This document shows positions 3,574 to 32,698 of a stretch of 64,000 nucleotides of DNA, piece by piece. The notes under the pieces are model-generated. The model was not told where the DNA came from, searched no databases, and saw nothing but the letters and a program-made list of their open reading frames with translations. Position 1 is the first letter of the stretch; each line of letters begins with the position of its first letter. A program made the translations under genes and the position numbers. Origin of the DNA: Alphaproteobacteria bacterium (GTDB taxonomy: Bacteria; Pseudomonadota; Alphaproteobacteria; UBA7985; JAUIBT01). The stretch is from positions 9,986 through 73,985 of the forward strand of contig JAUIDR010000009.1 of assembly GCA_030428565.1 (NCBI GenBank), written 5' to 3'.

Positions 3574-3658
3574 GCCCTGGTGGCGGAATTGGTAGACGCG
3601 CACGTTTCAGGTACGTGTGACTTCGGTCGTGGAAGTTCGAGTCTTCTCCAGGGCACCA
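3574..3658 (+). tRNA. tRNA-Leu (anticodon CAG), class II with long variable arm, CCA encoded
   Basis: Manual fold: acceptor stem GCCCTGG/CCAGGGC, anticodon stem CACGT/ACGTG with loop TTCAGGT, a long variable arm, a TTCGAGT T-loop and a 3' ACCA. Confidence 0.88.
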
Positions 3659-3891: not shown

Positions 3892-3999
3892 GCGCAAGCC
3901 CCGAACGAGTGGCAACACGAGTGAGCATGGACTTGCGCTATAAATCAGTCATTTAGAGCGGATGGGCTGTCGATACACCAGCGCCCGACGCTCTAGAGG
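3892..3999 (+). repeat. 105-110-bp intergenic hairpin repeat, copy B
   Basis: Begins GCGCTAGCGCAAGCC and ends CGCTCTAGAGG. Its 3' end abuts and overlaps the stop codon of the Gfo/Idh/MocA gene on the minus strand. Confidence 0.8.
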
Positions 4000-4985
4000 C
4001 TGATCGCGCGGCCTTCACGGCGTGAGCGTTCACATGCCAATGCCACCTCCAGAGCCAGCTTACCGTCGTGCTGAGTTGAGGAAGGCTGACGGCCTTCACT
4101 AACCGCCTGATAAAACTCGTCGAGGGCAAAATAGAACGAAGCGTCATAGCGCTCTAAAAAGAAGTGCTTGAGCGGCTGCTTGGCCTGGGTTGCGGTGGCA
4201 TCCCAGCGGATCAAATTGTTGTCGCGATGATTGCTGGTCTGCAGCATGCCGTCGCGGCCAAAAGCTTCCAAGCGCTGATCAAAGCCATAGGCGCAGCTGC
4301 GGCTGTTGTTGATATGGGCCAGGCAACCAGACGGCATTTTCAACGTCGTCATAGTGGCATCGACATCACCGTTTTCACCGATCGCGGGATCGAACAAACA
4401 GCTGCCAGCGGCAAAGACCTCCACCGGTCGTTCGCCGGTAATCCAGCAAATCAAATCAATGTCGTGGATGCTGGCGTCGACAAAATAACCGCCTGAGCGT
4501 TTGACGTATTCAATCGGTGGCGGGGCGGGCTCGCGGCTCCAGCTCATCAGGAAGGTCAGCGCGCCGATCTCGTTATTGCGCACAGCGGCCTGCAGTTGTG
4601 CAACATCGGGGTCAAAGCGGCGGTTAAAGCCCAGCATAAAGGGCACGGGGTGTTCTTCGAGCGTGGTCAGGCAGGCCTGGGTGCGCTCCAGCGACTGGTC
4701 CAAGGGCTTTTCGCAATAGATGGGCTTGCCCGCTTTGGCGCAGGCCTGGATGTATTCCAGATGGGTCGTCGTCGGCGTGGCGATGACAACCGCATCGACG
4801 CGCGGATCGGCCAAGACCACCTCCAAATCGCTGGAGGCCTGGCCGCCGTATTGGCTGGCCGCGCGCTGTGCCGATTCCAGGTTGGGATTGAAGATCGTGA
4901 CCAGGTCCAGCATGGGGTGGGCGTTGATTTTGGGGCCGTAAACGTGGGCCATCCGCCCACTTCCAAGAAGCGCTATGCCGAGCAT
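3993..4985 (-). CDS. Gfo/Idh/MocA-family NAD(P)-dependent oxidoreductase
   Basis: The N-terminal Rossmann sequence MLGIALLGSGRMA and the EKP motif (CEKPL) are typical of the family. It is 330 aa. Confidence 0.8.
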   Translation of the reverse strand: MLGIALLGSGRMAHVYGPKINAHPMLDLVTIFNPNLESAQRAASQYGGQASSDLEVVLADPRVDAVVIATPTTTHLEYIQACAKAGKPIYCEKPLDQSLERTQACLTTLEEHPVPFMLGFNRRFDPDVAQLQAAVRNNEIGALTFLMSWSREPAPPPIEYVKRSGGYFVDASIHDIDLICWITGERPVEVFAAGSCLFDPAIGENGDVDATMTTLKMPSGCLAHINNSRSCAYGFDQRLEAFGRDGMLQTSNHRDNNLIRWDATATQAKQPLKHFFLERYDASFYFALDEFYQAVSEGRQPSSTQHDGKLALEVALACERSRREGRAISL

Positions 4986-5045: not shown

Positions 5046-6647
5046 CTAACCTTTGGCATCTTCCAAGACGATCGCCGCGCCCTTTTCACCGATCATAATG
5101 GCCGAGGCGTTGGTGTTGCCCGTTACGATCCGGGGCATGATGGAGGCATCGATGACCCGCAAGCCTTGCAAGCCGTGGACCCGCAGACGCTCATCAACAA
5201 CAGCTTCGCCGTCGCTGGCAGGGCCCATTTTACAGCTGCCAACCGGGTGCAGGAGCGAAAGGCCATTGCTGCGGCAGTAATTCAACAGCTCTTCGTCGCT
5301 TTGAACGCCATCGCCTGGCGAGATCTCGTAGTCCACGCAAGCGGCCATGGGCGCCGTCTGGGCGATCTTGCGACCAAACTTGAGTCCCGCCATCGCGGCC
5401 CGCTGGTCGCTTTCATCGGCCAAAAAGTTGAACTGAATCGCGGGCTGATCACTGGGGCGCGGGCCGGTGACGTGGACCGAGCCGCGCGAGTTGGGGCGCA
5501 TATGCTCGGCCAAGATGGTAAAGCCGGAGAAGGGATGGGGCTTCAGGTTTTCATCCGTACACCAAGCCATGAAGGTCACCATCATGTCGGGACGATCGAC
5601 CTCGGGCGAACTGCAAATGAAGGTGTTGGAATAATTGCCATTGTCCGCAAAGGGACCGGTGCGGAATAATAAGAAGCGCAGCAGTTGCAGCCCGCCGCGC
5701 AGCGGGTTGTTGTAGAGATCGTTGACCGTGGTCGGCTTGGTAGAGCGGTATTCTGCGCCGATGCCAAAGTGATCCTGAAGGTTTTCGCCAACACCAGGCA
5801 GATCGTGGAAGGGATTAACGCCGCGTTCTTTCAGCAGCTCGGGCTTGCCAATCCCCGAAATTTCCAGCAACTGCGGCGAATTAAAGGCCCCCGCACAGAC
5901 GATTACCTCGCGTCGCGCTTTGGCCATATGGGGCCCGCTGGCGTCGCTCCAGGCGATCCCGGTTGCGCGCTTATCGGTAAACAAGATCCGCTCGACCATG
6001 GCGCGCAGCTTGATATCAATATTGGCCTTGGCGGGACCGCGCAAATAACCCGCAGCGGTGCTCCAGCGCCAGCCCTTGCGCGTGGTGGTCTGGACATAGC
6101 CGGTGCCGAGCTGCCGAGCGCCGTTGAAATCGTCATTGCGGGGAACGCCCAGGGCTTCTGAGGCCTCATGAAAGGCTTCACCCAGCGCGTGGGTAGTGCG
6201 CAGGTCCGAGACCGATACGGGCCCCCCCGTGCCGTGAAACGCATCCGCGCCGCGTTCTTGATCCTCGCAGGACTTGAAGTAGGGCAGCACGTCATCCCAG
6301 CCCCACCCGCTGCAGCCCGCTTGTTTCCAGCCGTCGAAGTCTTCTGGCTGGCCGCGCATATAGATCATGCCGTTGATCGCGCCCGTACCGCCCAGAACCT
6401 TGCCCCGCGGTTGAAACAGGCGGCGCTGGTTCAGATGCGGCTCGGGCTGGCTGGTGTAGCACCAGTTGACCGCGGGGTTGTCGTAGAGCTTTGAATAACC
6501 CAGCGGAATATGAATCCAAGGGCTGCGATCCTTGCCACCCGCTTCAAGCAATAAAACAGTATGATTGGCTTCCGCGAGCCGACCCGCGACTGCACAGCCA
6601 GCAGACCCCGCGCCAACTACAATGAAATCGTACTCTTCTACTGCCAT
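5046..6647 (-). CDS. GMC-family FAD oxidoreductase (choline dehydrogenase-like)
   Basis: Contains YDFIVVGAGSAGCAVAGRLAE (GMC N-terminal FAD motif) and C-terminal GMC motifs. The start was chosen at MAVEEYDF (ATG 6647), not the upstream extension to 6755. Confidence 0.85.
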   Translation of the reverse strand: MAVEEYDFIVVGAGSAGCAVAGRLAEANHTVLLLEAGGKDRSPWIHIPLGYSKLYDNPAVNWCYTSQPEPHLNQRRLFQPRGKVLGGTGAINGMIYMRGQPEDFDGWKQAGCSGWGWDDVLPYFKSCEDQERGADAFHGTGGPVSVSDLRTTHALGEAFHEASEALGVPRNDDFNGARQLGTGYVQTTTRKGWRWSTAAGYLRGPAKANIDIKLRAMVERILFTDKRATGIAWSDASGPHMAKARREVIVCAGAFNSPQLLEISGIGKPELLKERGVNPFHDLPGVGENLQDHFGIGAEYRSTKPTTVNDLYNNPLRGGLQLLRFLLFRTGPFADNGNYSNTFICSSPEVDRPDMMVTFMAWCTDENLKPHPFSGFTILAEHMRPNSRGSVHVTGPRPSDQPAIQFNFLADESDQRAAMAGLKFGRKIAQTAPMAACVDYEISPGDGVQSDEELLNYCRSNGLSLLHPVGSCKMGPASDGEAVVDERLRVHGLQGLRVIDASIMPRIVTGNTNASAIMIGEKGAAIVLEDAKG

Positions 6648-6715
6648 AATGCTTATCCCGAGGTCTGTCTTTGGGGTGAAGTCTGACAGCCTGCACGGCC
6701 AGAAAAAGATTGGAA

Positions 6716-6726
6716 ATATCAGATAT
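6716..6726. promoter_or_regulatory. 11-bp palindrome ATATCAGATAT in the divergent promoter region
   Basis: A perfect palindrome sits in the 144-bp gap between the GMC gene (-) and the HTH-SBP regulator gene (+). Confidence 0.25.
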
Positions 6727-6791
6727 GGACAAATTGCCTTTACGCAGCTCGTCATAAGCTGTTCAAATCCGAGTAACCCCTAAGATTCGCG

Positions 6792-8504
6792 TTGTGGACC
6801 ATGACCCGAGAAGAGCTGTTAAGAATTCTGAATTTCGTAGACCAAATGCGATCTTTGTCTGAAGAACGCACCGATTTGGCCTCGGTCGATGCGCGTTGGA
6901 ACATCGTTAGCTACGCCATGCACCGCCATCTGGAAGGCAAGCGCTTGACGATCACATCCGTGGCCATGGCGGCGGGAGTGCCCTATGGCACCGCTATGCG
7001 TCGCGTCAATGAATTGATCGACGAAGGCTTTTTGCTACGCCGGCCAAGATCGAAGACCGGTAAGTCCTTTTCCTTGCACCCGACGCGCAAAATGATCAAA
7101 GAGGTCGAGTCTTTTGCCATGCAATTCAAAGCCATGGTGGGCAAGACTTTTGGATTTAACACCGGTGACAAAGAAATAGAGGACTTCTATTTCGGCGGTT
7201 ACTACATGGCCTCACGCATCTTGTCGTATCCAAACGCGATGCGCAACGGACCAGGTTATGACAAGACCATACGCCTGCTGGGACCGGTTGATCCGACCTT
7301 CAAGACCCTCAGCGACCACACCGCGACCTTGAGCGAGTTGTGCGGCACGAATATCACCGCCACCAATCTGCCGCTTCGCGAGTTGCATCAAGAAATCGTC
7401 GCCAACAGCAAGCGCGAAAAATCCGAATATGATCTGATGGCCATCGATCTGCCTTGGATTGGTCAGTTGGCGGAAGAAGGGATTATCCAGCCGCTGGACG
7501 ACATCATTCGCCGGGAACGCTATAGTTCCAGCGACTTTCACTCGGCGGCCTTCGTCGGCTCTTCTTATAAAAGCGTCCAATATGGATTGCCGATCCAGCC
7601 GACGGTCGAGCTGCTGTTTTGCCGCCGCGATTTGTTCACCCAAGCCGGTCTGAAAATCCCGCAAACGGTCGAGGAAGTCTCGCTAGCCGCCCGCATTTTG
7701 CATCGCTCTGACTTCGGCCTTTCCGGGATCGTAATGAACTATGGCCGGGGCATTCCGGTCGCGCACACCTTTGTTCAGACCCTGGCCGACTTTGGCCAAC
7801 CGGTTATCAACTTGGAAGCGCGGGGCGACGAATTTGCGATCGACGATATCGAGGGCGAGCAGTTTCGCCCGATGATTGATACCGAGGCGGGCCGACAGAC
7901 CGCCGAATTCCTGTTAGAGCTGCGCGATTACGCGCACCCTGAGAGCTTGCAATGCGATTGGGATCGACGCATCGGCATTTTTGCGCGCGGCGAAGCTGCC
8001 ATGACCTATGGCTGGTCGGTGCGCGCGGCGGCCTTTGAACTAGACCCGTCATCGCCCGCTCATGGCCAGGTCGAGTTTGTGCCACACCCCCACGGCCCGG
8101 GAGCGGCCACGGTCTCACCCATGGGCGGCTTTTCTTTGGCCATGCCCGCTGGATTGGCAGAAGAGCGTAGCCGCGCGGCCTGGAAGGTCATGGAGTATTT
8201 GACCCGCCCCGAGCTCATGAAGTGGTATGTCCAAAACGGAAATCTGACCAGCCCACGTTTTTCCACCAGCGCTGACCCAGAGGTATCGGCCGCCAGCTCG
8301 ATCATTGGCAGCGTTGATGCCATGCAAAGACGCGGCGAACTGCAAATCTGGCCGCGCCCGCCGATCCCCGAGATCAACGATATCTTGCAGGTTCTGGGCA
8401 ACGAAATTTACGCCTTGCTGTGCAACGACCTCAGCGTCACTCATGCCCTCGCCGCAGCACAAAACAAGGTCGATGCCATTATGCACGAGCGTGGCCACTA
8501 CTGA
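6792..8504 (+). CDS. cytoplasmic one-component regulator: N-terminal winged-HTH fused to an ABC-type solute-binding-protein (SBP family 1 / PBP type 2) domain
   Basis: There is no signal peptide. The N-terminal roughly 110 aa are helical wHTH-like (TITSVAMAAGVPYGTAMRRVNELIDEGFL). The remainder has a DLMAIDLPWIGQLAEEG-type SBP_bac_1 signature. It is 570 aa. Confidence 0.6.
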   Translation: MWTMTREELLRILNFVDQMRSLSEERTDLASVDARWNIVSYAMHRHLEGKRLTITSVAMAAGVPYGTAMRRVNELIDEGFLLRRPRSKTGKSFSLHPTRKMIKEVESFAMQFKAMVGKTFGFNTGDKEIEDFYFGGYYMASRILSYPNAMRNGPGYDKTIRLLGPVDPTFKTLSDHTATLSELCGTNITATNLPLRELHQEIVANSKREKSEYDLMAIDLPWIGQLAEEGIIQPLDDIIRRERYSSSDFHSAAFVGSSYKSVQYGLPIQPTVELLFCRRDLFTQAGLKIPQTVEEVSLAARILHRSDFGLSGIVMNYGRGIPVAHTFVQTLADFGQPVINLEARGDEFAIDDIEGEQFRPMIDTEAGRQTAEFLLELRDYAHPESLQCDWDRRIGIFARGEAAMTYGWSVRAAAFELDPSSPAHGQVEFVPHPHGPGAATVSPMGGFSLAMPAGLAEERSRAAWKVMEYLTRPELMKWYVQNGNLTSPRFSTSADPEVSAASSIIGSVDAMQRRGELQIWPRPPIPEINDILQVLGNEIYALLCNDLSVTHALAAAQNKVDAIMHERGHY

Positions 8505-8639: not shown

Positions 8640-8672
8640 AAAAAAGGCCGCAGCAAACGCTACGGCCTCTTA
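8640..8672. terminator. bidirectional intrinsic terminator-like hairpin
   Basis: The sequence is AAAAAAGGCCG-cagcaaacgcta-CGGCC-TCTT. It lies between the convergent genes ending at 8504 (+) and 8690 (-). Confidence 0.4.
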
Positions 8673-8689: not shown

Positions 8690-9682
8690 TTACCAGGAAG
8701 GACGCTCAAACGCGTCAACGTTTTCCGGCAGGACTTTGGGGGTCTCGATGCCTTGCAGCGCTGGGACGTCGATACCGTTCGCGATTTTGACCGCGGTCTG
8801 AATAGCCAGGATTGCATCGTCAATCGGTGACTGCTTATTTGAGCCAGAGTGCCAACCGGCCTTCATCGCATCCCAGCCTTCGCCGAATTGGTTACAAGTC
8901 ACGACCTTCACTTCGCCCGGTGCTTTACCAGCGCCTTGCAGGGCACTGATGACGCCCAGCCCCATGCCATCGTCGAAAGCGTAAACGCCGTCGATCTGAT
9001 CGCCAAACTGAGTCAGGAAAGTCTCCATGACGGTCTGCGCTTTTTCGCGGTTCCATTCTGCGGTCTGGCTAGCCAGGATCTCGATGCCCGGATAATCATC
9101 CGCCATCTTATCCAAGAAGCAGTTCTTGCGCAGGATCGAGACGGTGTAACCAGGTGTCCCCTCAACAACAACGATCTTGCCGCTGCCACCAAGGGCGTCG
9201 GCCAACATTTCAGCTGACTGTTCGGCCTGTGCGCAGTCATCGGGTCCGGTATGGCCGACGATATAGCGGCGACCCGCTTCGCCGATCGGTGAATTAGAGG
9301 TTACAACCGGAATACCCGAACGCGCCGCGCCACGAATAGCCGGAATCAAAGCGTTTTGGGACGTGGGCCAAACCACCAGGGCATCCGGGTTTTGTGATGC
9401 CATGTCTTGGATTTGGTCAAACTGGACCGCAGGATCGCCCTGAGGATCCATAACGGTGGCTTGAATGCCCAGCTGCTTGCTGTACTCAACCGCCGTCTCG
9501 GCGTACTTGGCTTGATAGGCGTTCGATCCAGGATAAAGAACCGTAATGCCGATGCGGGTCTCAGCGAGCGGCTTCTTCAGCTCTCCGCCGAGCCAATCGG
9601 GGGCGTCGCCCGCCATGGCTGTGCCCGCCAAAGCGGCTGCGACCGCCAATGAGGCACCAACCTTAGTAATGATGGAATTCAT
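8690..9682 (-). CDS. sugar ABC transporter periplasmic substrate-binding protein (RbsB-like, PBP type 1)
   Basis: It has the signal peptide MNSIITKVGASLAVAAALAGTAMA and periplasmic-binding-protein sugar-type sequence. It is 330 aa. Confidence 0.8.
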   Translation of the reverse strand: MNSIITKVGASLAVAAALAGTAMAGDAPDWLGGELKKPLAETRIGITVLYPGSNAYQAKYAETAVEYSKQLGIQATVMDPQGDPAVQFDQIQDMASQNPDALVVWPTSQNALIPAIRGAARSGIPVVTSNSPIGEAGRRYIVGHTGPDDCAQAEQSAEMLADALGGSGKIVVVEGTPGYTVSILRKNCFLDKMADDYPGIEILASQTAEWNREKAQTVMETFLTQFGDQIDGVYAFDDGMGLGVISALQGAGKAPGEVKVVTCNQFGEGWDAMKAGWHSGSNKQSPIDDAILAIQTAVKIANGIDVPALQGIETPKVLPENVDAFERPSW

Positions 9683-9872
9683 TATGTTTCCTCCTTAGGG
9701 TGCCGCCAGAACTCTGTGCTTCGAAAACCCTTCGGCGGCAGTTTGGGTTCGCACTCGCTACATTCCGGCAATCATTCACGGAGCTCAATCAGCAATTTAT
9801 CCAAAATTGATTTATTGTGCCTATCGGTCTACCGAGCACCAGCTTATTGCTGAGTTAGGGAGAACTTGCCGT

Positions 9873-10826
9873 ATGAAATTTGATCTCAAAGATGCTTTGC
9901 GCCGCCACGGCCTTTTGTTGGCATTTGGGGTGTTTTTGCTCGCGGTTGCCGCAAATGCTGATGCTTTTCTAACGCTCGGCAATATTTTGGACGTCCTGCG
10001 TCAAGTCTCGATCACCGGGATGATGGCCTTGGGTGTCACTTTCGTGGTTTTGACCGGTCGTCTTGATTTGTCAGTTGGCTCATTACTAACGCTGCTGACT
10101 GTGATCGTTGTCGATCAGCACAACCAATCGGGCGCCGCCGCGGCTATCGTCATGACACTGGCCGCCGGCCTAGCTGTCGGCGCTTTCAACGGCTTTCTAG
10201 TTGGTTTTGTTGGCCTAAATGCCTTGATCGTCACGCTGGCCATGCTGTCGTTTCTGCAAGGATTGGTGCTGTTTTATTCGGGCGGATCGAACGTCAACAT
10301 CCCCAATGCCCAGGAGACCTGGTTCGCCGTGTTCGGGCGTGGCGATTTCATGGGGCTCCCTGTTCCGGTCATTTTATTTGTCGTCGCCGGCATCATTGCC
10401 GGGGCGATCCTGCGCTTTACCACCTTTGGCCGAAAGGTCTACGCCGTGGGCGGCAACCAGACCGCCAGCGTCTTTTCCGGTATTGATTCCCGTTGGGCGG
10501 TCTTTTGGACCTACGTAATCTCGGGCCTGACCACAGGATTGGCGGCCATTATCATGGGGAGCCGGGTCATGGGCGCACAAAACACAATCGGGCAGGGCTA
10601 CGAGCTAACCGTCCTTGCCGGGGTCATTCTAGGCGGAACCTCACTGCTCGGCGGAAGAGGCAGCATCTTCCGAACAATGATCGGCATCGCAATGCTCGGA
10701 TTTATCCAAAATGGACTTTTGTTGCTGTCCTTCCCCTATTACGTCCAGTGGATTGTGACCTGGGCGGTTATCATCCTGGCCGTATGGATCGACATTGGCG
10801 CTAAGCGTGGAAGGATTTTCGCATGA
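9873..10826 (+). CDS. sugar ABC transporter permease (RbsC-like)
   Basis: It is a multi-TM protein with conserved branched-chain/ribose-type permease motifs. The start was chosen at MKFDLK, not the track start at 9807. Confidence 0.8.
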   Translation: MKFDLKDALRRHGLLLAFGVFLLAVAANADAFLTLGNILDVLRQVSITGMMALGVTFVVLTGRLDLSVGSLLTLLTVIVVDQHNQSGAAAAIVMTLAAGLAVGAFNGFLVGFVGLNALIVTLAMLSFLQGLVLFYSGGSNVNIPNAQETWFAVFGRGDFMGLPVPVILFVVAGIIAGAILRFTTFGRKVYAVGGNQTASVFSGIDSRWAVFWTYVISGLTTGLAAIIMGSRVMGAQNTIGQGYELTVLAGVILGGTSLLGGRGSIFRTMIGIAMLGFIQNGLLLLSFPYYVQWIVTWAVIILAVWIDIGAKRGRIFA

Positions 10827-11797
10827 CTCTTGTCTCAAATTCTCGCAGCGACACCTTCCTGGCTGTCCTTGGTCGCTGGCTGCTCCGCAACCACATATGG
10901 AGCTTCTTCGCGCTAACCGTAATCGTATTTTCCTTATCCAGCCCTTTCTTTCTGACCGTCAACAACCTGGGCAATATCCTGACCCAAGGCGCCTTCATCG
11001 GCATCCTTGCGGTCGGCATGACAATGGTGATGATCGACGGTGAAATCGACCTATCCGTTGGTGCGGTCTTGGCCATGGCTTCAGCGCTTGCCATCGGGCT
11101 GCAAGATCACATTGGAGTGTGGCCCGCCGTCCTGGTCGGCCTGGCATCCGGCGCTGCACTGGGGTTTTTCAACGGCACGTTGGTTGCTCTGTCCGGCATG
11201 CATTCGTTTGTCGTTACCTTGGGCGGCCTGATCGGCATCCGGGGGCTAGTCTTCATCTACACGGGTGAAAATGCACTGATGGTGACGGACTTCTCCTACA
11301 CAGAGATTCCTGAAGTCTACTTGGGCCCGCTGTCTATGACCGCAATTTTGTTTTTTGCTTTGGCCCTGTTTTTCCAGTGGGTATTGACCAGCACCCGCCA
11401 CGGACGCGAGACCTACGCGGTCGGTGATAACGTCGAAGCGGCCTACGATTCAGGGATCAATGTCAAACGGCACAAGATCATCAACTTCACGATTTGCGGT
11501 ACCATGGCTGCAATATGTGGGATTTTGCTGTCGATGCGACTGGGGACCGCCGAACCCAACGCCGGCAAAGTATGGGAACTCTGGACCATTATCGCGGTGG
11601 TGCTGGGCGGTACACGTTTGATCGGCGGCTACGGCAGCATGTGGATGACCATTGGCGGCGTGCTGACCTTGGCGGTGCTGCGCAATGGCTTGCGGCTTTT
11701 AAATACGCCCAACTACGTTGAATTGATGGTCATGGGCACCGTTTTGATCTTGGCAGTGGCCCTCGACAAACTCCTCAACATGAAGGAGGAAACGTGA
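10823..11797 (+). CDS. sugar ABC transporter permease (RbsC-like), second copy
   Basis: It overlaps the upstream gene by 4 bp (ATGA) and is a multi-TM permease of 324 aa. Confidence 0.8.
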   Translation: MTLVSNSRSDTFLAVLGRWLLRNHIWSFFALTVIVFSLSSPFFLTVNNLGNILTQGAFIGILAVGMTMVMIDGEIDLSVGAVLAMASALAIGLQDHIGVWPAVLVGLASGAALGFFNGTLVALSGMHSFVVTLGGLIGIRGLVFIYTGENALMVTDFSYTEIPEVYLGPLSMTAILFFALALFFQWVLTSTRHGRETYAVGDNVEAAYDSGINVKRHKIINFTICGTMAAICGILLSMRLGTAEPNAGKVWELWTIIAVVLGGTRLIGGYGSMWMTIGGVLTLAVLRNGLRLLNTPNYVELMVMGTVLILAVALDKLLNMKEET

Positions 11798-13302
11798 TGA
11801 ATGACATCATTCTTCAGCTCAGTGGCATCACCAAGACCTTTCCCGGTGTGACCGCACTCGACCAAGTGAGCTTGGATGTGCGCGCCGGGGAAGTGCACGC
11901 GCTCGTTGGCGAAAACGGGGCCGGAAAGTCGACTTTGATGAAAGTATTGGCGGGTCTATACAAGGCCGAACAAGGCGATATTATCTATCAAGGTCGCACA
12001 ACCGATGTGGCTGGCCCGCTCGATGCGAGGCGCAAAGGGATCTTGCTGATTCACCAGGAACTATCCCTGGCACCTGAATTGTCGGTGGCCGAGAATATCT
12101 ATCTTGGCGCCTGGCCCACCAATCGTTTCGGGGTACTAAAGAAGCGCGAATTGCGCAGCAAGGCCCAAGCGGCGCTGCAAGCCCTGGGCTGCGCCTTTGG
12201 CCCCGATGTGCGCGTGGGCACATTGTCGGTCGCCATGCAGCAGATGGTCGAGATTGCCCGCGCAGAAGCCTTTAGTGCCAGCGTTGTAATCTTTGATGAG
12301 CCAACGGCTTCCCTGACAGACACCGAAAAGGAACAACTGTTCCACACCATTCGCAGCCTCAAGGCGCGCGGCGTTGGGATAATCTATATCTCCCACAAGA
12401 TGGACGAGATCTTTCAAATAACCGATCGCATCACGGTTTTACGCGACGGGCAGGTGCAAGGCACGCTGGAGACCGCACAATCGGATGTCAACCAAGTCAC
12501 CCGCATGATGATAGGGCGCACGCTCGATACCTACTTCGTCAAAGCCAAGGCGGATTTCGGTGCAGAGGTCTTGCGCGTTGAGGGTTTGTCGAAGGCCGGG
12601 TTGTTCAACGACGTCTCCTTTTCTGTGCGCGAAGGCGAGGTGCTAGGGCTATATGGATTGGTGGGCGCCGGACGCTCGGAAGCTGTCGAGACCGTGTTTG
12701 GTGTTCGGCGCGCCGACAGCGGTCAGCTCGTCTGGAAAGGCGGGGTCATCGCGCCGCCGACGCCGCGCCAGGCCATCGATATGGGCATGGCATTGGTGCC
12801 CGAGAGCCGAAAGGAACAAGGTTTGGTATTGATGATGGGCGGGCGCGAAAATACCTCCCTGCCCCACTTGTCTTTGTTTTCGGCTTTGTCGGTCATGAAC
12901 CGAGCCAAAGAGCTGGCGACGTTTGAAAAATACCGATCTGCCCTTTCGATCAAGACTACAGGCCCGGATCAGGAAGTCTCTCAACTCTCGGGCGGCAATC
13001 AACAGAAGTTCGTTCTGGCTAAATGGCTCTGCGCTGGACCCAAGCTGATCATTCTTGATGAGCCAACACGCGGCATCGATGTCGGCTCAAAATCCGCAAT
13101 TCACGAGCTGATCGCGGAACTGGCAGAACAAGGTCTTGCCGTCATTGTTATCTCGTCTGAAATGCCCGAGGTCTTGGGCGTCAGCCACCGCGTCCTTGCC
13201 ATGTCAGAAGGCGAAATTGTGGGCTCTTTCGAGGGCCAGGAGATGAACGAGGAAAACCTCATCGATGCGGTATCCTACCACCGCCAAAGCGCTGTTGGGT
13301 GA
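11794..13302 (+). CDS. sugar ABC transporter ATP-binding protein (RbsA-like, duplicated ATPase domains)
   Basis: It has two NBDs with Walker A GENGAGKST, an LSGGQQQ signature and a second LSGGNQQK signature. It is 502 aa. Confidence 0.88.
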   Translation: MMNDIILQLSGITKTFPGVTALDQVSLDVRAGEVHALVGENGAGKSTLMKVLAGLYKAEQGDIIYQGRTTDVAGPLDARRKGILLIHQELSLAPELSVAENIYLGAWPTNRFGVLKKRELRSKAQAALQALGCAFGPDVRVGTLSVAMQQMVEIARAEAFSASVVIFDEPTASLTDTEKEQLFHTIRSLKARGVGIIYISHKMDEIFQITDRITVLRDGQVQGTLETAQSDVNQVTRMMIGRTLDTYFVKAKADFGAEVLRVEGLSKAGLFNDVSFSVREGEVLGLYGLVGAGRSEAVETVFGVRRADSGQLVWKGGVIAPPTPRQAIDMGMALVPESRKEQGLVLMMGGRENTSLPHLSLFSALSVMNRAKELATFEKYRSALSIKTTGPDQEVSQLSGGNQQKFVLAKWLCAGPKLIILDEPTRGIDVGSKSAIHELIAELAEQGLAVIVISSEMPEVLGVSHRVLAMSEGEIVGSFEGQEMNEENLIDAVSYHRQSAVG

Positions 13303-14477
13303 AGAGCATGACACAGGTAGGCAAGACACAGGTAGGCATGGCACAAAATAGCTCTAAAACTAGCGTTGGCATCGGCTTGATCGGCTCCGGCTTTATGGGG
13401 CGCTGCCACGCCAACGCCTTTACGGCTGTCGCGGGCCTGTTCGATCTGCCGATGACGCCGGTCAAACAGGTTCTTGCCGACCACAGCCAGGAAGCGGCCA
13501 ACGCGGGCGCACGCGCGCTTGGCTTCGCCCAGGCAACCGCTGATTGGGAAGCGTTAATCGCAGACAAAGCGGTTGACATCGTGGCCATTACCGCGCCGAA
13601 CGCCCTGCACGAGCCAATGGCTCTGGCCGCCATCGCGGCAGGCAAGACCGTTTATTGTGAAAAGCCGTTGTCAACCACTGCGGCTTCAGCGCTGACCATG
13701 ACAAAGGCCGCCGAGGAAGCGGGCGTCGTGACCTGTGTTGGCTTCAATTTCTTACGAAACCCCATGCTGCGACTGGCGCGCGAGATCATCCAAGCCGGTG
13801 AAATCGGTGAGATCACGGGCTTTCGCGGCCGTCATGCTGAAAACTACATGTCTGACCCAGACACCCCGCACTCGTTTCGCACCGATCCTGAGGGCGGCGG
13901 CGCGCTCGCCGACATTGGCAGCCACATCATATCGATGGCGCGCTTTTTGATTGGTCCCATCGTCGAGGTCAGCGCCGACTGTCAGACCATCTTTGCTGAT
14001 CGTCCCGTGCGCGCCGGATCTACGCAGCGGCGGCCCGTGGTCGTCGATGACGTGACCCATGCCTTGGTCCGCTTTGATAGCGGTGTCTTGGGCAGCCTAG
14101 AGGCCAATTGGGCCGCAACCGGACGCACCATGGATCTGTCCTTTGAAGTGACCGGAACGCGAGGCGCGGTTGCCTTTTCGCAAGAACGTATGAACGAACT
14201 GCATCTGCATACCGGCCAGGGCGGCCGCGCGGGCTATCGCCGCATCGAAGCCGGCCCCGACCACGAGCCATACGGGCGCTTCTGTCCGGCGGCGGGCCAT
14301 CATCTTGGTTTCAATGATCTGAAGATTATCGAAGTTGCGGATTTGCTCATGGCGCATGCCACTGGCGGCGCCTGTTCTCCCGATTTCCGCGAAGCCTGGC
14401 GGGTTCAGCAAACGGTCGAGGCCATGCAAGCGTCATCGCAAGAACGCCGTTGGCTCTCGGTCGATAAGGCAAGCTAA
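13299..14477 (+). CDS. Gfo/Idh/MocA-family oxidoreductase
   Basis: Contains the Rossmann sequence IGLIGSGFMGRCHANA and the CEKPL motif. Its start overlaps the ATPase stop by 4 bp, which suggests translational coupling. Confidence 0.8.
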   Translation: MKSMTQVGKTQVGMAQNSSKTSVGIGLIGSGFMGRCHANAFTAVAGLFDLPMTPVKQVLADHSQEAANAGARALGFAQATADWEALIADKAVDIVAITAPNALHEPMALAAIAAGKTVYCEKPLSTTAASALTMTKAAEEAGVVTCVGFNFLRNPMLRLAREIIQAGEIGEITGFRGRHAENYMSDPDTPHSFRTDPEGGGALADIGSHIISMARFLIGPIVEVSADCQTIFADRPVRAGSTQRRPVVVDDVTHALVRFDSGVLGSLEANWAATGRTMDLSFEVTGTRGAVAFSQERMNELHLHTGQGGRAGYRRIEAGPDHEPYGRFCPAAGHHLGFNDLKIIEVADLLMAHATGGACSPDFREAWRVQQTVEAMQASSQERRWLSVDKAS

Positions 14478-19212: not shown

Positions 19213-19227
19213 GTTCTACTTTCGTGC
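19213..19227 (+). promoter_or_regulatory. weak candidate alphaproteobacterial LexA (SOS) box GTTC-N7-GTGC overlapping the uvrB start region
   Basis: The sequence GTTCTACTTTCGTGC has one mismatch to the GTTC-N7-GTTC direct-repeat consensus and lies directly upstream of the uvrB ATG codons. Confidence 0.2.
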
Positions 19228-21491
19228 GCATGATGTTGGACCAAGAAACCCTTATCCAAGCCGCGCGCGCTGAACGCTCGCAGATTGCCTTCGAGCTGGT
19301 GTCGGATTACAAGCCCGCCGGCGACCAACCCACCGCCATCGACGAGCTGGTGAGCGGCCTGCGCGAAGGCGAACGCGATCAAGTGCTGTTGGGGGTTACG
19401 GGCTCCGGCAAGACCTTCACCATGGCCCATGTGGTGCAGACCCTCAATCGGCCGACCATCGTGCTCGCGCCCAACAAGACCTTGGCCGCCCAGCTCTATG
19501 GTGAAATGAAGTCCTTCTTCCCAAATAACGCGGTCGAATACTTCGTCTCCTATTACGACTACTACCAGCCTGAAGCTTATGTGCCGCGCTCGGATACCTA
19601 TGTTGAAAAGGAATCCTCAATCAACGAGCAGATCGACCGCATGCGCCACGCGGCCACCCGGGCCCTGTTCGAGCGCGAAGACGTGGTGATTGTGGCCTCG
19701 GTGTCTTGTATCTACGGCATGGGCTCGCCCGAGACCTACGTCGGCATGACCCTGCCCCTGGAAACCGGTGAGACGCTGGACCAGCGCGAGCTGCTGCGCC
19801 GCTTGGTCGAACTGCAATACAAGCGCAATGACGTTGCCTTCGGGCGCGGCACCTTTCGCGTGCGCGGCGATACCGTCGAAATCTACCCCTCGCACGCCGA
19901 GGACGCGGCCTGGCGCATCTCTATGTTCGGCGACGAGATCGAAGCCATCTATGAATTCGATCCGCTGACCGGCGAGCGCGGCCAACCTTTGGAGAAAGTG
20001 CGCCTCTATGCCAACTCGCACTACGTGACGCCCAAGCCCACGATTTTGCAGGCCATCAAGCAAATCAAGGTGGACCTAAAGCGCCGCTTGGAGGAGCTGG
20101 AAGCAGCGGGAAAATTGCTTGAAGCACAGCGCCTGCAACAACGCACCAGCTTTGACATCGAAATGCTGGAGGCCACCGGTTCTTGCGCGGGCATTGAGAA
20201 CTATTCGCGCTATCTGACCGGTCGCGCACCCGGCGAGCCACCGCCGACGCTGTTCGAATACATCCCCGACAACGCCCTGCTGATTATCGACGAAAGCCAC
20301 GTCACGGTGCCGCAAATCGGCGCCATGTATAAGGGCGATTCCGCGCGCAAAATGACCTTGGCTGAATACGGCTTCCGCCTGCCGTCTGCGGCCGACAACC
20401 GCCCGCTGAAGTTCGAGGAATGGGAGGCCATGCGCCCCCAAACCGTCCACGTATCCGCCACCCCTGGCAACTGGGAGATGACCGCCACCGGCGGCGCCTT
20501 TACCGAGCAGGTCATTCGCCCGACAGGACTGGTTGACCCTGTGTGCGAGATCCGGCCGACAGAAACGCAGGTGGACGATCTGATCGCCGAAGCGCGCGAC
20601 ATCGCCGAAGCGGGCGGGCGCGTTTTGGTCACCACCTTGACCAAGCGCATGGCAGAGGACTTGACCGAATATCTGGGCGAAGCGGGCCTGAAGGTGCGTT
20701 ATATCCACTCGGACGTGGACACGCTGGAGCGCATTGAAATCATTCGCGATTTACGGCTGGGCGTCTATGACGTTCTGGTCGGCATCAACCTGCTGCGCGA
20801 GGGTCTGGACATCCCGGAATGCCGCTTGGTGGCGATTCTGGACGCCGACAAGGAGGGCTATCTGCGCTCCACAACCTCGCTGATTCAGACCATCGGGCGC
20901 GCCGCGCGTAACGTTGAAGGCCGCGTCATTCTCTATGCTGACCGCACCACCGACAGCATGAAGGCCGCGCTGGAGGAGACCGAGCGCCGCCGTGAAAAAC
21001 AGCTGGCCTACAACGCCGAACATGGCATTACGCCCGAGACCATCAAGAAGGAAATCGGCGACATTTTGGGCTCGGTCTATGAGCGCGATCACGTCACCGT
21101 CGGCACCGGCGATGAAGACCTGCTGCACCTGCAAGGCAAGAGCCTGCGCGATACGCTGGACGAACTGGAAAAGCGCATGCGCGATGCCGCCGCCAATCTG
21201 GAATTCGAGGAAGCCGCGCGGCTACGCGACGAGATCAAGCGCTTGGAAGCCAAGGAGCTGGAGTTGGGCTCACCCGGTGCAGCCGTGCCCGACACCTCGG
21301 GCAAGTCAGCCGGGCGCAACAAGCAGCGCCGTCAGCAAGAGCGCGGCGAAGGGCGCGGGATAGTCGGCAAAGCCAGCGAGAAAACAACTGCTAGCACAGC
21401 ATCAGGCGGGAAGAAGAAAAGCACCAAAGCCGAGGCCATCAACCCCTTGGAGAAGGTCGTCGGCCCCATCAAGCGCAAATCCCGGCGCTAG
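19224..21491 (+). CDS. uvrB: excinuclease ABC subunit B (UvrB)
   Basis: Contains PAGDQPTAI, the Walker [12 protein letters not shown], helicase motifs and a C-terminal UvrB/UvrC interaction region. The true start may be the ATG at 19230 or 19233, not the GTG at 19224. Confidence 0.93.
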
Positions 21492-30650: not shown

Positions 30651-31001
30651 GGTGGGAGCCTGGACACTGTTGGGGTTGGGGCACGGCGGCCATCATGGCG
30701 GCGCGCGCTGGGTGTCGGGCACTATGTCCCTGACCGCTTTGGCGGTGGCGTTCGATCGAGCGCTCAACCGGGGCCGCAGCGGGAAAAGCGCTTTGGTATC
30801 GCGGAGGCCCTCCATAGCGCAAAGGCCTAGGCGTTTCAAGCCACAGCCGCGTGACGGAGGCCGCGCATTGCGCAGAGCGGCTATGAGGGGAAGTGGCGGC
30901 CTTCCGACGGCAGCCCGGCAACAGTCAGGCGGCAGCGATGGGCGATAAGCTGGGGACAAGCGCAGGCAGAGATTGTTTAGCGAATTATCGCATCTTAGGA
31001 T

Positions 31002-31781
31002 TTGGGCCACCCCTACAACAAGCAACGAGCCTCCCGCATGGACGTTTCTTCGGTTCAAAAGACCCGCCTGACCTTTGCGCTGATTTCGACGCCGATGATC
31101 TTGCTGCAACACGATATCGTCAAGAACACGGTGTTTTCCGATTGGGTTCCGCTGGCGCTAGGAGATTGGGACTGGTGGCAAACACCAATGCTGCTCGCGC
31201 CTCTTTTTGTGTTGACCATTATACACTACATACGCGCATATGCGGAACAACATCGATACCGCTTTCAAAACAAAACTGATGACGTAGAATTGGAATTTGA
31301 GTCACTAAAGGCCGATTTAATCGAGCAAATTGAAGATGGAATCAAACAATACGCTATTTTATCAAAATCAATTATCTACTCCGCGACAGAGCAATCAATT
31401 TTTCAAGAAATGAATTCAATATCAAAAATAGCTGATAGTAAAATTAAATCGATTTCAAATACATCTAAAATTTTCCAAATAAACAAAATAGGCCTATATT
31501 GCTTGATGTTTTCTGATGAAATGAATGATATTATACAAAATGCAGCTGACAGCAATGCAAGCAAAGAAGTTTTGGAATATTTACATATTTCAAAATTAAT
31601 TTCGGATACAGGTCACGCAGAAAGCAAAAACATTCTTATCAAGATAAAAAGAATATCCACAGCGAGTGCGTTTGCAAACATTCTATCTGAATTGCTGTTT
31701 CCCGCTTTCTTCTGGCTTGTCTTGCTCTGGCCGTTGATCATTCACCCAGCGTTTAAGACGATCGCTGGCTACATGTCATAA
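31002..31781 (+). CDS. hypothetical membrane protein encoded in an AT-rich island (start uncertain: 31002, 31038, 31095 or 31188)
   Basis: A continuous open frame runs through about 520 bp of roughly 35% GC DNA, where stop codons would otherwise be frequent. There are two predicted TM helices (WVPLALGDWDWWQTPMLLAPLFVLTIIHYI and LLFPAFFWLVLLWPLIIHPAF). No recognisable family was found. Confidence 0.55.
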   Translation: MGHPYNKQRASRMDVSSVQKTRLTFALISTPMILLQHDIVKNTVFSDWVPLALGDWDWWQTPMLLAPLFVLTIIHYIRAYAEQHRYRFQNKTDDVELEFESLKADLIEQIEDGIKQYAILSKSIIYSATEQSIFQEMNSISKIADSKIKSISNTSKIFQINKIGLYCLMFSDEMNDIIQNAADSNASKEVLEYLHISKLISDTGHAESKNILIKIKRISTASAFANILSELLFPAFFWLVLLWPLIIHPAFKTIAGYMS

Positions 31782-32047
31782 CAGTTCCTGTCACGACCAG
31801 CGCACCTGAAACGCCCTGGCGCGCGCTCGGCCTTACGGGCCTGGCGGCTGCGACTCATTGTTATTCAATCGAAGGCGGGATGCTTGGCGATCTCTTGTTG
31901 ATCTCGCGCAGGGGTAAAATCTGCAAGGCTTGGTGCTGTGACGGCCCTCAAATACCGCCGCACAGCCCCCCCCCAAGCAGACCTGACAAGGGCTCGGTCA
32001 AACAGCCCACCAAGAACGACAGCGAGTCTAAGGCAAACCCTCCAGGC

Positions 32048-32578: not shown

Positions 32579-32698
32579 GTCGGGAATCCTCGTTTAGGGT
32601 CAGGTGCTTATCGGAACCTGGCGAGCGCTATCACAGCGCCCAAGCATGGCTCCACCTTGACCCTAGACCATTTCGGCATACCCCCGCAACGCTAAGGC

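What the first reader, a model, noticed from the sequence alone, without database searches (positions are those of the whole stretch)
6792..8504. Cytoplasmic wHTH::ABC-type solute-binding-domain fusion, a candidate one-component sugar sensor beside a ribose-type ABC transporter
The protein has no signal peptide. The first roughly 110 aa look like a winged-helix DNA-binding domain. The rest is a family-1 extracellular solute-binding-protein fold, not the usual LacI/PBP type 1 sensor. So an SBP fold has been recruited as an intracellular ligand sensor. It sits divergent from a GMC oxidoreductase and convergent with an RbsB-like SBP, two permeases, an ATPase and a Gfo/Idh/MocA dehydrogenase (8690-14477). 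An 11-bp palindrome (6716-6726) in its promoter region is a candidate operator.
Basis: partly seen in the sequence, partly recalled or inferred. Interest (0 to 1): 0.6.

Follow-up and report, generated by a model that had tools for sequence, protein, structure and literature searches.

The report
Sugar-binding-protein fold turned gene regulator
This gene encodes a cytoplasmic protein that joins a MarR-like DNA-binding domain to a full-size transporter-type sugar-binding domain. Comparison of about 80 genomes indicates that it is the switch for a small inositol or polyol uptake-and-oxidation gene island, and that it belongs to a widespread regulator family which databases label as "extracellular solute-binding protein".

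Summary
The ORF is real, with the true start most likely at ATG 6801 (567 aa). It has no signal peptide. Residues 1-117 fold as a MarR-like winged helix. Residues 156-567 form a MalE/TMBP-type (SBP_bac_1) two-lobed binding fold.

The gene sits in a cassette conserved in more than 80 species: IolG-like dehydrogenase, GMC oxidoreductase, this gene, a CUT2 ABC transporter and a scyllo-inositol-dehydrogenase-like enzyme. It is the only HTH protein in the cassette.

Phylogenetic footprinting found a conserved 20-bp operator with a core dyad RTCCA-N3-TGGAY. In the window it lies at 6714-6733 (between the GMC gene and this gene) and at 9796-9815 (between the binding-protein gene and the permease genes). 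No comparable intergenic match occurs elsewhere in the 64 kb.

The same motif lies beside paralogues that are only 27-40% identical, in 9 of 10 unrelated plasmid loci. I therefore read the protein as a dimeric one-component regulator whose binding domain senses a cyclitol or polyol. The ligand and the sign of regulation are inferred, not shown.

Every database name for this family is "extracellular solute-binding protein", and I found no paper describing it. I rate it a new variant of a known kind, of moderate to high interest.

The parts
6801..8504 (+). Gene for the 567-aa wHTH::SBP one-component regulator.
   Evidence: 120 listed homologues, nearly all 567 aa, 65-100% identical..
6801..7151 (+). 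Residues 1-117, a MarR-like winged-helix domain. Helices at 3-22, 31-44, 51-57 and 62-74 (recognition helix, VPYGTAMRR), a wing at 78-94, and a helix at 96-116.
   Evidence: R67 is invariant across the 34-member family alignment.
7152..7265 (+). Residues 118-155, an interdomain linker modelled at low confidence. It carries the invariant motif F129-x-F131-G-G-x-Y-M, which is YFGG in the wider family. It is a candidate coupling element between the two domains.
7266..8501 (+). Residues 156-567, a two-lobed SBP_bac_1 (MalE/TMBP-like) ligand-binding domain.
   Evidence: PF01547, 1e-21; 5iai 6e-38, 1eu8, 4rya; TM 0.91.
6714..6733 (.). Operator OA, AAATATCAGATATGGACAAA, with core dyad 6718-6730 centred at 6724. 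It lies 77 bp from both the GMC start and the regulator start.
   Evidence: PWM score 30.0 bits. Conserved in 64 of 81 loci at this position. IUPAC pattern: 3 matches against 0.08 expected.
9796..9815 (.). Operator OB, TTTATCCAAAATTGATTTAT, with core 9799-9811. It lies in the divergent region between the RbsB-like gene and the permease operon.
   Evidence: 28.3 bits. Orthologous regions usually carry two copies.
5046..6647 (-). GMC-family FAD oxidoreductase, choline-dehydrogenase-like but below the BetA cut-offs. It is divergent from the regulator.
3993..4985 (-). Gfo/Idh/MocA dehydrogenase that passes the NCBIfam inositol 2-dehydrogenase (iolG) cut-off, 360.7 against 355.
8690..9682 (-). Periplasmic RbsB-like (CUT2) binding protein with a signal peptide. 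Its closest solved relatives are the M. smegmatis CUT2 binding proteins 4rsm, 4rs3 and 5hko.
9873..13302 (+). Two CUT2 permeases (9873-10826, 10823-11797) and a tandem ATPase (11797-13302).
13308..14477 (+). Second Gfo/Idh/MocA dehydrogenase, related to scyllo-inositol/L-glucose dehydrogenase (5ya8, 6e-85) and to levoglucosan dehydrogenase.
8642..8671 (-). Terminator-like hairpin (13-bp stem plus a T run) after the RbsB-like gene, in the convergent gap with the regulator gene.

Best explanation
The gene encodes a cytoplasmic one-component transcription factor that controls the cassette it sits in.

**Proposed mechanism**
- Two MarR-like winged-helix domains (residues 1-117) of a dimer bind a roughly 20-bp operator, consensus AAWATCCA-N3-TGGATWTT. 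The operators usually pair one strong half-site (TGGAY) with a weaker one.
- In the window these operators sit in the two divergent promoter regions: 6714-6733 (GMC/IolG-like operon against the regulator gene) and 9796-9815 (binding-protein gene against the permease-ATPase-dehydrogenase operon).
- The C-terminal 410-residue SBP_bac_1 Venus-flytrap domain binds a small hydroxylated ligand in the cytoplasm. Lobe closure is passed through the conserved YFGG linker and changes DNA affinity.
- The ligand is most likely the transported inositol, cyclitol or polyol, or its first oxidation product.
- I consider ligand-induced release of a repressor the most likely logic.

**What is shown and what is inferred**
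- Shown computationally: the domain folds, the cytoplasmic location, and the conserved operator with its co-occurrence with the gene family.
- Inferred: dimerisation, that this protein is what binds the operator, the ligand class, and the sign of regulation.
For: **Architecture**
- SBP_bac_1 at 1e-21 plus weak HTH hits. Among 34 homologues, 21 hit MarR_2 and 21 hit HTH_IclR.
- AF2 pLDDT is 85.4 for the full protein and 86.3 for the N-domain.
- The N-domain's top Foldseek hits are MarR regulators, including DNA complexes of FabT, MepR and MarR.
- The C-domain reaches TM 0.91 to the SBP 5iai.
- There is no signal peptide or transmembrane segment.

**Context**
- The same cassette accompanies the gene in about 80 species of Rhodobacterales, Hyphomicrobiales, Vibrionaceae, Marinobacterium and others. 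The transporter type can be swapped while the regulator and the three oxidoreductases stay together.
- None of the other seven cassette proteins matched an HTH family, and the recurring cassette has no further member.

**Operator**
- The motif was found in 66 distinct GMC/regulator regions and 49 binding-protein/permease regions.
- In the 64-kb window the four best PWM hits (19-30 bits) all lie between 6.7 and 10.7 kb. Everything else scores 12.1 bits or less.
- In 1.38 Mb of related loci there are 209 hits of at least 18 bits. About 190 lie in cassette intergenic regions and 5 lie far from the cassette genes located by tblastn.
- In rearranged loci the motif follows the GMC promoter.

**Independent check on paralogues**
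- Paralogues at 27-40% identity were chosen by protein similarity alone. They sit beside CUT2 or CUT1 sugar ABC operons, usually divergent from them, with SDR, Gfo/Idh/MocA or ring-cleavage genes.
- In 9 of 10 such loci the ortholog-derived PWM's best hits fall in the intergenic regions next to the paralogue, for example AATTATCCAATTTGGATACA and AAACATCCATTTTGGATATT.
- The most divergent paralogue has a changed recognition helix (PRTSARR) and only a diverged motif, TCGCCAAAATGGTTA.

**Ligand class**
- The IolG-equivalog and LgdA-like dehydrogenases point this way.
- The regulator's binding domain is closest to 5iai, TMBP and a sorbitol SBP.
Against: - There is no experimental evidence of DNA binding.
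- The window protein's own Pfam HTH scores are below the gathering thresholds (16.0 against 22; 14.7 against 27).
- The Foldseek match of the N-domain to MarR proteins is modest (TM about 0.5, E about 2e-4).
- The PWM was trained on the cassette regions, so the enrichment there is partly circular. Only the paralogue and rearranged-locus hits are independent.
- The GMC/regulator operator is only partly symmetric, with 3-4 of 6 dyad pairs.
- The operator centre is about 77-86 bp upstream of both start codons. That position suits a class-II-type activator as well as a repressor, and no convincing sigma-70 promoter was found over it.
- The ligand is unknown. The linker is modelled at low confidence.
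Confidence: 0.8

Rival explanations
1. The same protein and the same operators, but it works as a ligand-dependent activator. It would be bound near -40 of both divergent promoters and recruit RNA polymerase when the ligand closes the binding domain.
For: The operator centre lies about 77-86 bp from both start codons. With typical leaders this places it near -40, a classical class II activator position. No good sigma-70 -35/-10 pair overlaps it, as expected for activator-dependent promoters.
Against: Most MarR-fold regulators and most local sugar-catabolic regulators are repressors (general knowledge, not tested here). Many relatives have two operators about 90 bp apart in the transporter region, which also suits repression by looping or a double roadblock. 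Transcription start sites are unknown.
Confidence: 0.3
2. The protein is cytoplasmic and binds a ligand but does not bind DNA. Its winged helix would mediate protein-protein contacts, and the conserved palindrome would be the site of another transcription factor encoded elsewhere.
For: Winged helices sometimes serve protein interaction. HTH scores for the window protein are sub-threshold. Motif-to-protein assignment by co-occurrence is indirect.
Against: The motif travels with the gene across classes and with paralogues in unrelated loci and taxa. The most conserved N-domain segment is the recognition helix, with invariant R67, next to a basic wing. No other regulator is conserved in the cassette.
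Confidence: 0.07
3. It is a canonical periplasmic ABC-transporter binding protein whose start codon or N-terminus has been misread.
For: All database names say 'extracellular solute-binding protein'. The SBP_bac_1 match is strong.
Against: The 155-residue N-terminal extension is conserved end to end in hundreds of homologues and folds as a winged helix. There is no signal peptide, lipobox or Tat motif. No CUT1 permeases are adjacent, and the neighbouring CUT2 transporter has its own secreted binding protein.
Confidence: 0.01

Closest known systems
MarR-family transcription factors (e.g. MarR, MepR, FabT, OhrR)
   Same: The N-terminal 117 residues have the MarR-like order of helices and wing and a long helix on each side. 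MarR-family proteins are the top structural matches. The operator is an inverted repeat of 13-20 bp, as for MarR dimers.
   Different: MarR proteins are about 140-150 aa and bind ligands in clefts within the winged-helix and dimerisation fold. Here a 410-aa separate sensor domain follows, the sixth MarR helix is missing, and the Pfam MarR models are not reached at their thresholds for the window protein.
LacI/GalR and LysR families (regulators with periplasmic-binding-protein-fold sensors)
   Same: The logic is the same. A DNA-binding domain is fused to a Venus-flytrap domain that is evolutionarily related to transporter binding proteins, and it acts as a local regulator of sugar or solute catabolism.
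   Different: LacI uses a tri-helical HTH_LacI plus a type I PBP (Peripla_BP_1/3). LysR uses HTH_1 plus a small, roughly 200-aa type II domain. This protein uses a MarR-like winged helix plus a full-size MalE/TMBP-type SBP_bac_1 domain still readily recognised as a transporter binding protein.
TrmB family (archaeal/bacterial sugar-sensing regulators of the trehalose/maltose ABC transporter)
   Same: An N-terminal winged helix is followed by a C-terminal sugar-binding domain, and the protein controls a sugar ABC transporter locus. A few family members give weak TrmB HTH hits.
   Different: The TrmB C-terminal sugar-binding domain is a different fold (Pfam TrmB_C; from my own knowledge). No TrmB_C match was found here.
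ABC-transporter binding proteins 5iai (Agrobacterium Arad_9887), TMBP 1eu8 and the sorbitol SBP 4rya
   Same: They share the fold and show detectable sequence similarity over the whole C-terminal domain.
   Different: Those proteins are secreted and dock on CUT1 permeases. This one is cytoplasmic, fused to a DNA-binding domain, and is not next to CUT1 permeases.
AmiC/AmiR of Pseudomonas aeruginosa (cytoplasmic PBP-fold sensor controlling a regulator; from my own knowledge)
   Same: A periplasmic-binding-protein fold is used as a cytoplasmic small-molecule sensor for gene control.
   Different: AmiC is a separate type I PBP that sequesters an RNA-binding antiterminator. Here the sensor is type II, covalently fused, and the output is DNA binding.

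Membership tests
One-component signal transduction system | Input (ligand-binding) and output (DNA-binding) domains lie in one polypeptide, without phosphotransfer domains. | tested here: met
   Only a wHTH and an SBP_bac_1/8 domain were found. There are no kinase or receiver domains.
One-component signal transduction system | Ligand-dependent change in DNA binding or transcription. | not testable with these tools
   This needs EMSA or reporter assays with candidate ligands.
MarR family | Sequence match to Pfam MarR or MarR_2 at the gathering threshold. | tested here: not met
   The window protein scores 14.7 bits on MarR_2 against a cut-off of 27. Of 34 family members, 21 hit at E<0.1, best 5.6e-7.
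MarR family | Winged-helix fold with flanking dimerisation helices. | tested here: met
   The AF2 N-domain model has pLDDT 86.3 and topology H-H-H-H-b-b-H. Top Foldseek PDB hits are MarR proteins, at TM about 0.45-0.59. One C-terminal helix fewer than MarR.
MarR family | Binds (pseudo)palindromic operators in its own or a divergent promoter region. | tested here: inconclusive
   A conserved dyad motif lies in the expected places. Binding itself was not tested.
SBP_bac_1 (family-1 / cluster D ABC solute-binding proteins) | Sequence match at the Pfam threshold and a two-lobed type II fold. | tested here: met
   PF01547 scores 78.6 bits against a cut-off of 26. The profile hit to 5iai is 6e-38. 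Foldseek gives TM 0.91.
SBP_bac_1 (family-1 / cluster D ABC solute-binding proteins) | Secreted (signal peptide or lipoprotein) and partnered with CUT1 permeases (BPD_transp_1). | tested here: not met
   There is no signal peptide. The adjacent transporter is CUT2 (BPD_transp_2) with its own Peripla_BP_4 binding protein.
LacI/GalR family | HTH_LacI domain plus a Peripla_BP_1/3 type I sensor. | tested here: not met
   Neither domain is detected in the protein.
TrmB family | TrmB wHTH plus a TrmB_C sugar-binding domain. | tested here: not met
   The TrmB HTH hit has E=0.14 only, and there is no TrmB_C match.

The most novel reading that the evidence does not exclude
The protein would be a member of a large, unrecognised family of bacterial transcription factors: a MarR-like winged helix, a conserved YFGG linker and a MalE-type transporter binding domain.
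- The family would share one operator code, ATCCA-N3-TGGAT.
- It would control mobile cyclitol, polyol or sugar uptake-and-oxidation islands across Alpha-, Beta- and Gammaproteobacteria and abundant marine lineages.
- It would be systematically mis-annotated as 'extracellular solute-binding protein'.
- It would be a natural example of a transporter receptor converted whole into a cytoplasmic gene switch, and a ready-made scaffold for biosensors built from binding proteins.
Probability: 0.6. Interest if true: 0.72.

Novelty: new variant of a known kind. Interest (0 to 1): 0.62.

Why it matters
**Annotation.** Hundreds of homologues are labelled as transporter binding proteins. The 50%-identity library holds 30 or more full-length clusters. 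They are probably regulators, which affects transporter censuses and metabolic reconstructions, especially for marine Rhodobacterales.

**Evolution.** The protein shows a full-size MalE-type binding protein recruited intact as a cytoplasmic sensor. This complements the LacI (type I) and LysR (small type II) precedents.

**Testability.** The predicted operator (two sites in this window) and the compact regulon make the system directly testable.

**Synthetic biology.** Binding proteins are a much-engineered ligand-binding scaffold (from my own knowledge). A natural direct coupling to a winged-helix output suggests a route to transcriptional biosensors.

**Marine carbon cycling.** The cassette is probably a mobile catabolic island for an algal cyclitol or polyol. 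It abuts a tRNA-Leu gene here and an integrase gene in Pseudophaeobacter.

Tried and rejected
- **N-domain homologue search.** It returned only 56 short fragments of the same family. It says nothing about stand-alone relatives, except that no canonical MarR protein scored at E<=1e-3.
- **Promoter scan.** It found no sigma-70-like promoter over the operator, and the total was no more than chance. The sign of regulation therefore could not be deduced.
- **Operator-like matches inside coding sequence.**
  - 7575-7587 lies in the regulator gene (VQYG codons). It is not conserved at synonymous sites in orthologues, so I treat it as chance.
  - 10701-10720 lies in permease 1 (IQNG codons). It recurs in only a few loci and stays unresolved.
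- **Possible second paralogue.** The 565-aa ORF at 28953-30650 is a U32 peptidase.
- **Plasmid search.** Megablast of the cassette against plasmids found only short GMC matches. uvrB lies at 19224-21491, so I take the window to be chromosomal.
- **Literature.** Seven full-text searches and three SBP reviews or surveys gave no description of this architecture. One survey only notes in general that some Pfam SBP hits are sensor domains of regulators. The library is incomplete, so absence there is not proof.
- **NCBIfam.** It gave no meaningful hit for the protein.
Full report
**1. The observation**

The window contains ORF 6792..8504 (+), 570 aa from a TTG.
- The first homologue search returned 355 proteins. 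The 120 listed are 65-100% identical, nearly all 567 aa, and begin MTREE. The physiological start is therefore almost certainly ATG 6801.
- Pfam finds SBP_bac_1 (78.6 bits, cut-off 26) and SBP_bac_8 over residues about 185-500.
- Pfam finds only sub-threshold HTH matches at residues 41-86: HTH_IclR E=0.011, MarR_2 0.036, HTH_24 0.094, TrmB 0.14. NCBIfam has nothing meaningful.
- The N-terminus has 11 charged residues in its first 30 and no hydrophobic core. No 19-residue window anywhere exceeds a Kyte-Doolittle mean of 1.09.
- By contrast, the RbsB-like protein next door starts MNSIITKVGASLAVAAALAGTAMAG, a classic signal peptide.

**2. Domain anatomy**

An AlphaFold2 model built on 46 homologues has mean pLDDT 85.4.
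- Residues 3-116 form helix 3-22, helix 31-44, helix 51-57, helix 62-74, strands 78-82 and 90-94, and helix 96-116.
- Residues 117-155 form a low-confidence linker.
- Residues 156-567 form an alpha/beta two-lobed domain.

*C-terminal domain.*
- The full model matches solved ABC-transporter binding proteins: 5iai at TM 0.91 normalised to the target, then TMBP 1eu8, T. maritima MalE3 and the Agrobacterium vitis SBP 4rya.
- A sequence profile of the family gives the same answer: 5iai 6e-38 over residues 156-557, 1eu8 1e-24, and 4rya 2e-18. One search names 4rya a sorbitol binding protein.
- That profile matches no solved structure in residues 1-155.

*N-terminal domain.*
- Residues 1-128 modelled alone reach pLDDT 86.3 with the same topology.
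- There are 23 Foldseek hits in the PDB below E=1e-3. 21 are MarR-family regulators or close relatives: Tm0710, Variovorax and Pseudomonas IAA-binding MarRs, a Ruegeria pomeroyi MarR, MepR, FabT-DNA, MarR itself, SarZ and AdcR. TM is 0.45-0.59.
- Sequence support comes from the wider family. Among 34 full-length homologues at 25-59% identity, 21 hit MarR_2 (best 5.6e-7) and 21 hit HTH_IclR (best 4.4e-5).
- In that alignment the best-conserved N-terminal segment is the predicted recognition helix (P-Y-x-T-A-x-R, with R67 invariant). It is followed by a basic wing.

*Linker.* It carries an invariant F-x-F-G-G-x-Y-M motif, YFGG family-wide. I take this, by inference only, as the likely coupling element between sensor and DNA-binding domain.

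**3. Genomic context**

I used exact-protein look-ups, a scan of one genome per species that returned 80 loci, and tblastn with all eight cassette proteins against those loci.
- The gene is almost always accompanied by the GMC oxidoreductase and an IolG-like dehydrogenase, usually immediately upstream and divergent.
- It is also accompanied by a second Gfo/Idh/MocA dehydrogenase and a CUT2 ABC transporter.
- The carriers include many Rhodobacterales, Hyphomicrobiales (Oricola, Pseudohoeflea, Maritalea), Vibrionaceae (Vibrio penaeicida, Grimontia, Enterovibrio), Marinobacterium, a Granulosicoccus MAG, Geminicoccales and Rhodospirillales MAGs, and a Dehalococcoidia MAG.
- Two different CUT2 transporters occur with the same regulator-enzyme core. 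The closest relative of the window gene (91% identity, locus L008) has the other type: a Peripla_BP_4 binding protein, a single-domain ATPase and one permease.
- Apart from this protein, none of the cassette proteins matched an HTH or regulator family, and tblastn finds no further recurring cassette member.
- In the window the cassette abuts a tRNA-Leu gene at 3574-3658. In Pseudophaeobacter an integrase gene lies beside it. Together with the unusually high cross-genus identity (binding protein 80-94%), this suggests a horizontally mobile catabolic island.

**4. The operator**

I extracted 66 distinct GMC/regulator intergenic regions and 49 distinct binding-protein/permease regions.
- Both sets contain one conspicuous conserved element. 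An iterated position weight matrix gives AAATRTCMRATTTGGAYAWW. The core 13-bp dyad is RTC(C/A)(A/G)A-T-TTGGAY, an imperfect version of ATCCA-N3-TGGAT.
- In Vibrionaceae the sites are near-perfect palindromes, such as TATCCAAAATGGATAT and ATATCCATTATGGATAT.

*Hits in the window*:

| Position | Score (bits) | Location |
|---|---|---|
| 6714-6733 | 30.0 | intergenic, exactly 77 bp from both divergent start codons |
| 9796-9815 | 28.3 | intergenic, 123 bp from the binding-protein ATG and 68 bp from the permease ATG |
| 10701-10720 | 27.8 | inside permease 1 |
| 8226-8245 | 19.0 | inside the regulator gene |

- Nothing else in 64 kb exceeds 12.1 bits.
- The IUPAC pattern RTCMRAWWTGGAY has 3 matches in the window against 0.08 expected. 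All three are inside the cassette.

*Hits in related loci.*
- Across 81 loci (1.38 Mb) there are 209 hits of at least 18 bits. About 190 lie in cassette intergenic regions, about 10 inside cassette genes and 5 elsewhere.
- The matrix was trained on two of these region types, so part of this enrichment is circular. Three results are not circular:
  - the background rate, roughly one hit per 90 kb;
  - the hits upstream of the alternative transporter;
  - the hits upstream of the GMC gene in rearranged loci.

**5. An independent test with paralogues**

A tblastn search of annotated plasmids found 34 records with full-length paralogues at 27-40% identity. All that carry annotation are named extracellular solute-binding protein, an ABC-type sugar transport periplasmic component, or (one) hypothetical protein.

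I retrieved ten loci: Phaeobacter, Agrobacterium, Skermanella, Marinovum, Tritonibacter, Shinella, Sinorhizobium, Rhizobium tumorigenes, Aminobacter and Paraburkholderia.
- The paralogue typically lies divergent from a CUT2 sugar ABC operon.
- That operon carries SDR, Gfo/Idh/MocA, ThuA or TIM-barrel genes. In several Rhizobiaceae there are also YciI, intradiol dioxygenase and maleylacetate reductase genes.
- I scanned these 158 kb with the ortholog-derived matrix. All 14 hits of at least 13.9 bits lie in intergenic regions flanking the paralogue or its neighbouring operon, in 8 of the 10 loci. A ninth locus, Shinella, has only a weak 11.3-bit hit there.
- Examples:

| Locus | Hit | Score (bits) |
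|---|---|---|
| Marinovum | AATTATCCAATTTGGATACA | 24.1 |
| Tritonibacter | AAACATCCATTTTGGATATT | 27.1 |
| Tritonibacter | AAATGTCCAATCTGGATATC | 25.2 |
| Sinorhizobium | AAATATCCGTTTCGGATAAT | 24.2 |
| Aminobacter | ATTCATCCAATTTGGATCAT | 19.5 |

- The tenth locus, the most divergent Paraburkholderia paralogue, has a different recognition helix (LPRTSARR). Its divergent region holds only a diverged element, TCGCCAAAATGGTTA.
- These loci were chosen by protein similarity alone. This is the strongest evidence that the protein family, and not some other factor, recognises the motif.

**6.

- ATATCAGATAT (6716-6726) is present and unlikely by chance, with 1 match against 0.02 expected.
- At the orthologous position it is fully symmetric in only 2 of 66 regions.
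- The family-wide dyad is centred 3 bp to the right, at 6724.
- At this particular operator one half (TGGAC) is consensus and the other (ATCAG) is degenerate, so neither register is a perfect palindrome.

**7. What the system probably senses**

- The upstream dehydrogenase passes the NCBIfam equivalog cut-off for inositol 2-dehydrogenase (360.7 against 355).
- The downstream dehydrogenase is most similar to the scyllo-inositol/L-glucose dehydrogenase 5ya8 (6e-85) and to the dehydrogenase 6a3f. Its best NCBIfam model is levoglucosan dehydrogenase, below that model's cut-off.
- The GMC enzyme resembles choline dehydrogenase, a chloramphenicol-inactivating oxidoreductase and alcohol oxidases. It is below the BetA cut-offs.
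- The secreted binding protein is closest to the Mycobacterium smegmatis CUT2 proteins 4rsm, 4rs3 and 5hko. I recall these as polyol complexes, but I did not verify that here.
- The regulator's own sensor domain is closest to 5iai, TMBP and a sorbitol SBP.
- A cyclitol or polyol, or its first oxidation product, is therefore the best guess. It remains a guess.

**8. Mechanism, and what is shown**

*Shown computationally:* the two folds, cytoplasmic location, the conserved cassette, the conserved operators, and their association with the whole protein family.

*Inferred:*
- The protein dimerises, from the MarR-like flanking helices and dyad operators.
- Ligand-induced closure of the flytrap alters DNA affinity through the YFGG linker.
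- It acts as a repressor released by inducer. This is by analogy only. The operator position near -40 of both promoters would equally suit an activator.

**9. Comparison with known systems and novelty**

- The principle of a periplasmic-binding-protein fold used as the sensor of a DNA-binding regulator is well known from LacI/GalR, LysR and XylR.
- Winged-helix sugar sensors exist in the TrmB family.
- This domain pair differs: a MarR-like winged helix plus an intact MalE/TMBP-type SBP_bac_1 domain.
- The library of representatives at 50% identity holds 30 or more full-length clusters with this architecture, down to about 25% identity. They occur in Rhizobiaceae, Mesorhizobium, Polaromonas, Paraburkholderia and low-GC marine metagenome lineages.
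- Every source name I saw treats them as transport proteins.
- Seven full-text searches and three SBP reviews or surveys gave no description of the family. One survey notes only in general terms that some Pfam SBP hits are sensor domains of regulators.
- I therefore classify it as a new variant of a known kind, with the caveat that the searchable literature is incomplete.

**10. Verdict**

- Corrections: the start codon, the operator register, and a second operator.
- Additions: a family-wide operator code and an inositol or polyol context.
- Confidence that this is a DNA-binding one-component regulator of the cassette is about 0.8. Confidence in repression rather than activation is about 0.55-0.6. 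Confidence in the cyclitol or polyol ligand class is about 0.4.

Noticed in passing
window 9683-9760 (leader of the RbsB-like gene, - strand); relatives L004-L087, rbsB/perm1 intergenic regions: The leader of the binding-protein gene carries conserved complementary segments. In 19 Rhodobacterales relatives they are arranged as an H-type pseudoknot just upstream of the Shine-Dalgarno sequence: CACCCCG..ACGCTGCC..CGGGG..GGAGGAA..GGCAGCGT. Of 16 proposed pairs, 92.4% of cells are paired, against 31-48% when the partners are slid. Six pairs show changes on both sides. The window itself has only a simpler hairpin, TGCCGCC...GGCGGCA. There is no Rfam match. I derived the structure by eye from these same sequences, so the support is provisional.
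   Followed up: partly
window 10701-10720 (inside permease 1, 9873-10826): A strong operator-like site, TTTATCCAAAATGGACTTT, scores 27.8 bits. It lies in the codons for FIQNGL about 110 nt before the end of permease 1. Similar internal hits occur at the same place in a few other loci: L016, L073, L076, L078 and L080. It may be a coding coincidence or an internal roadblock operator. This is unresolved.
   Followed up: partly
window 3574-3658 (+): A tRNA-Leu(CAG) gene lies directly beyond the IolG-like end of the cassette. In Pseudophaeobacter an integrase gene flanks the cassette, and the transporter module is exchangeable between close relatives. The cassette looks like a mobile catabolic island.
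   Followed up: no
L008 4874-10552 and about 20 other loci (e.g. L022, L027, L041-L043): An alternative cassette version has a different CUT2 transporter (binding protein, 269-aa ATPase, single permease) in place of the two-permease system. In L008 a 576-aa sulfatase-family gene follows directly downstream of the second dehydrogenase.
   Followed up: partly
L094, L095, L096, L093 (paralogue loci on Rhizobiaceae and Aminobacter plasmids): Paralogues of the regulator sit beside YciI, intradiol ring-cleavage dioxygenase, maleylacetate reductase, Gfo/Idh/MocA, SDR and TIM-barrel genes. This set suggests conversion of a cyclitol or sugar to hydroxyquinol followed by ring cleavage. The predicted operators lie in these loci.
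   Followed up: no
window 30001-32700: There is a local GC dip, 0.534 against about 0.60. It contains two ORFs, 31002-31781 and 31880-32695, with no Pfam match.
   Followed up: no
window 6700-6713 and orthologous regions: A conserved GAAC lies 5-9 nt upstream of the operator, on the GMC side, across orthologous GMC/regulator regions. Its role is unknown; it could be a promoter element or an extension of the operator.
   Followed up: no
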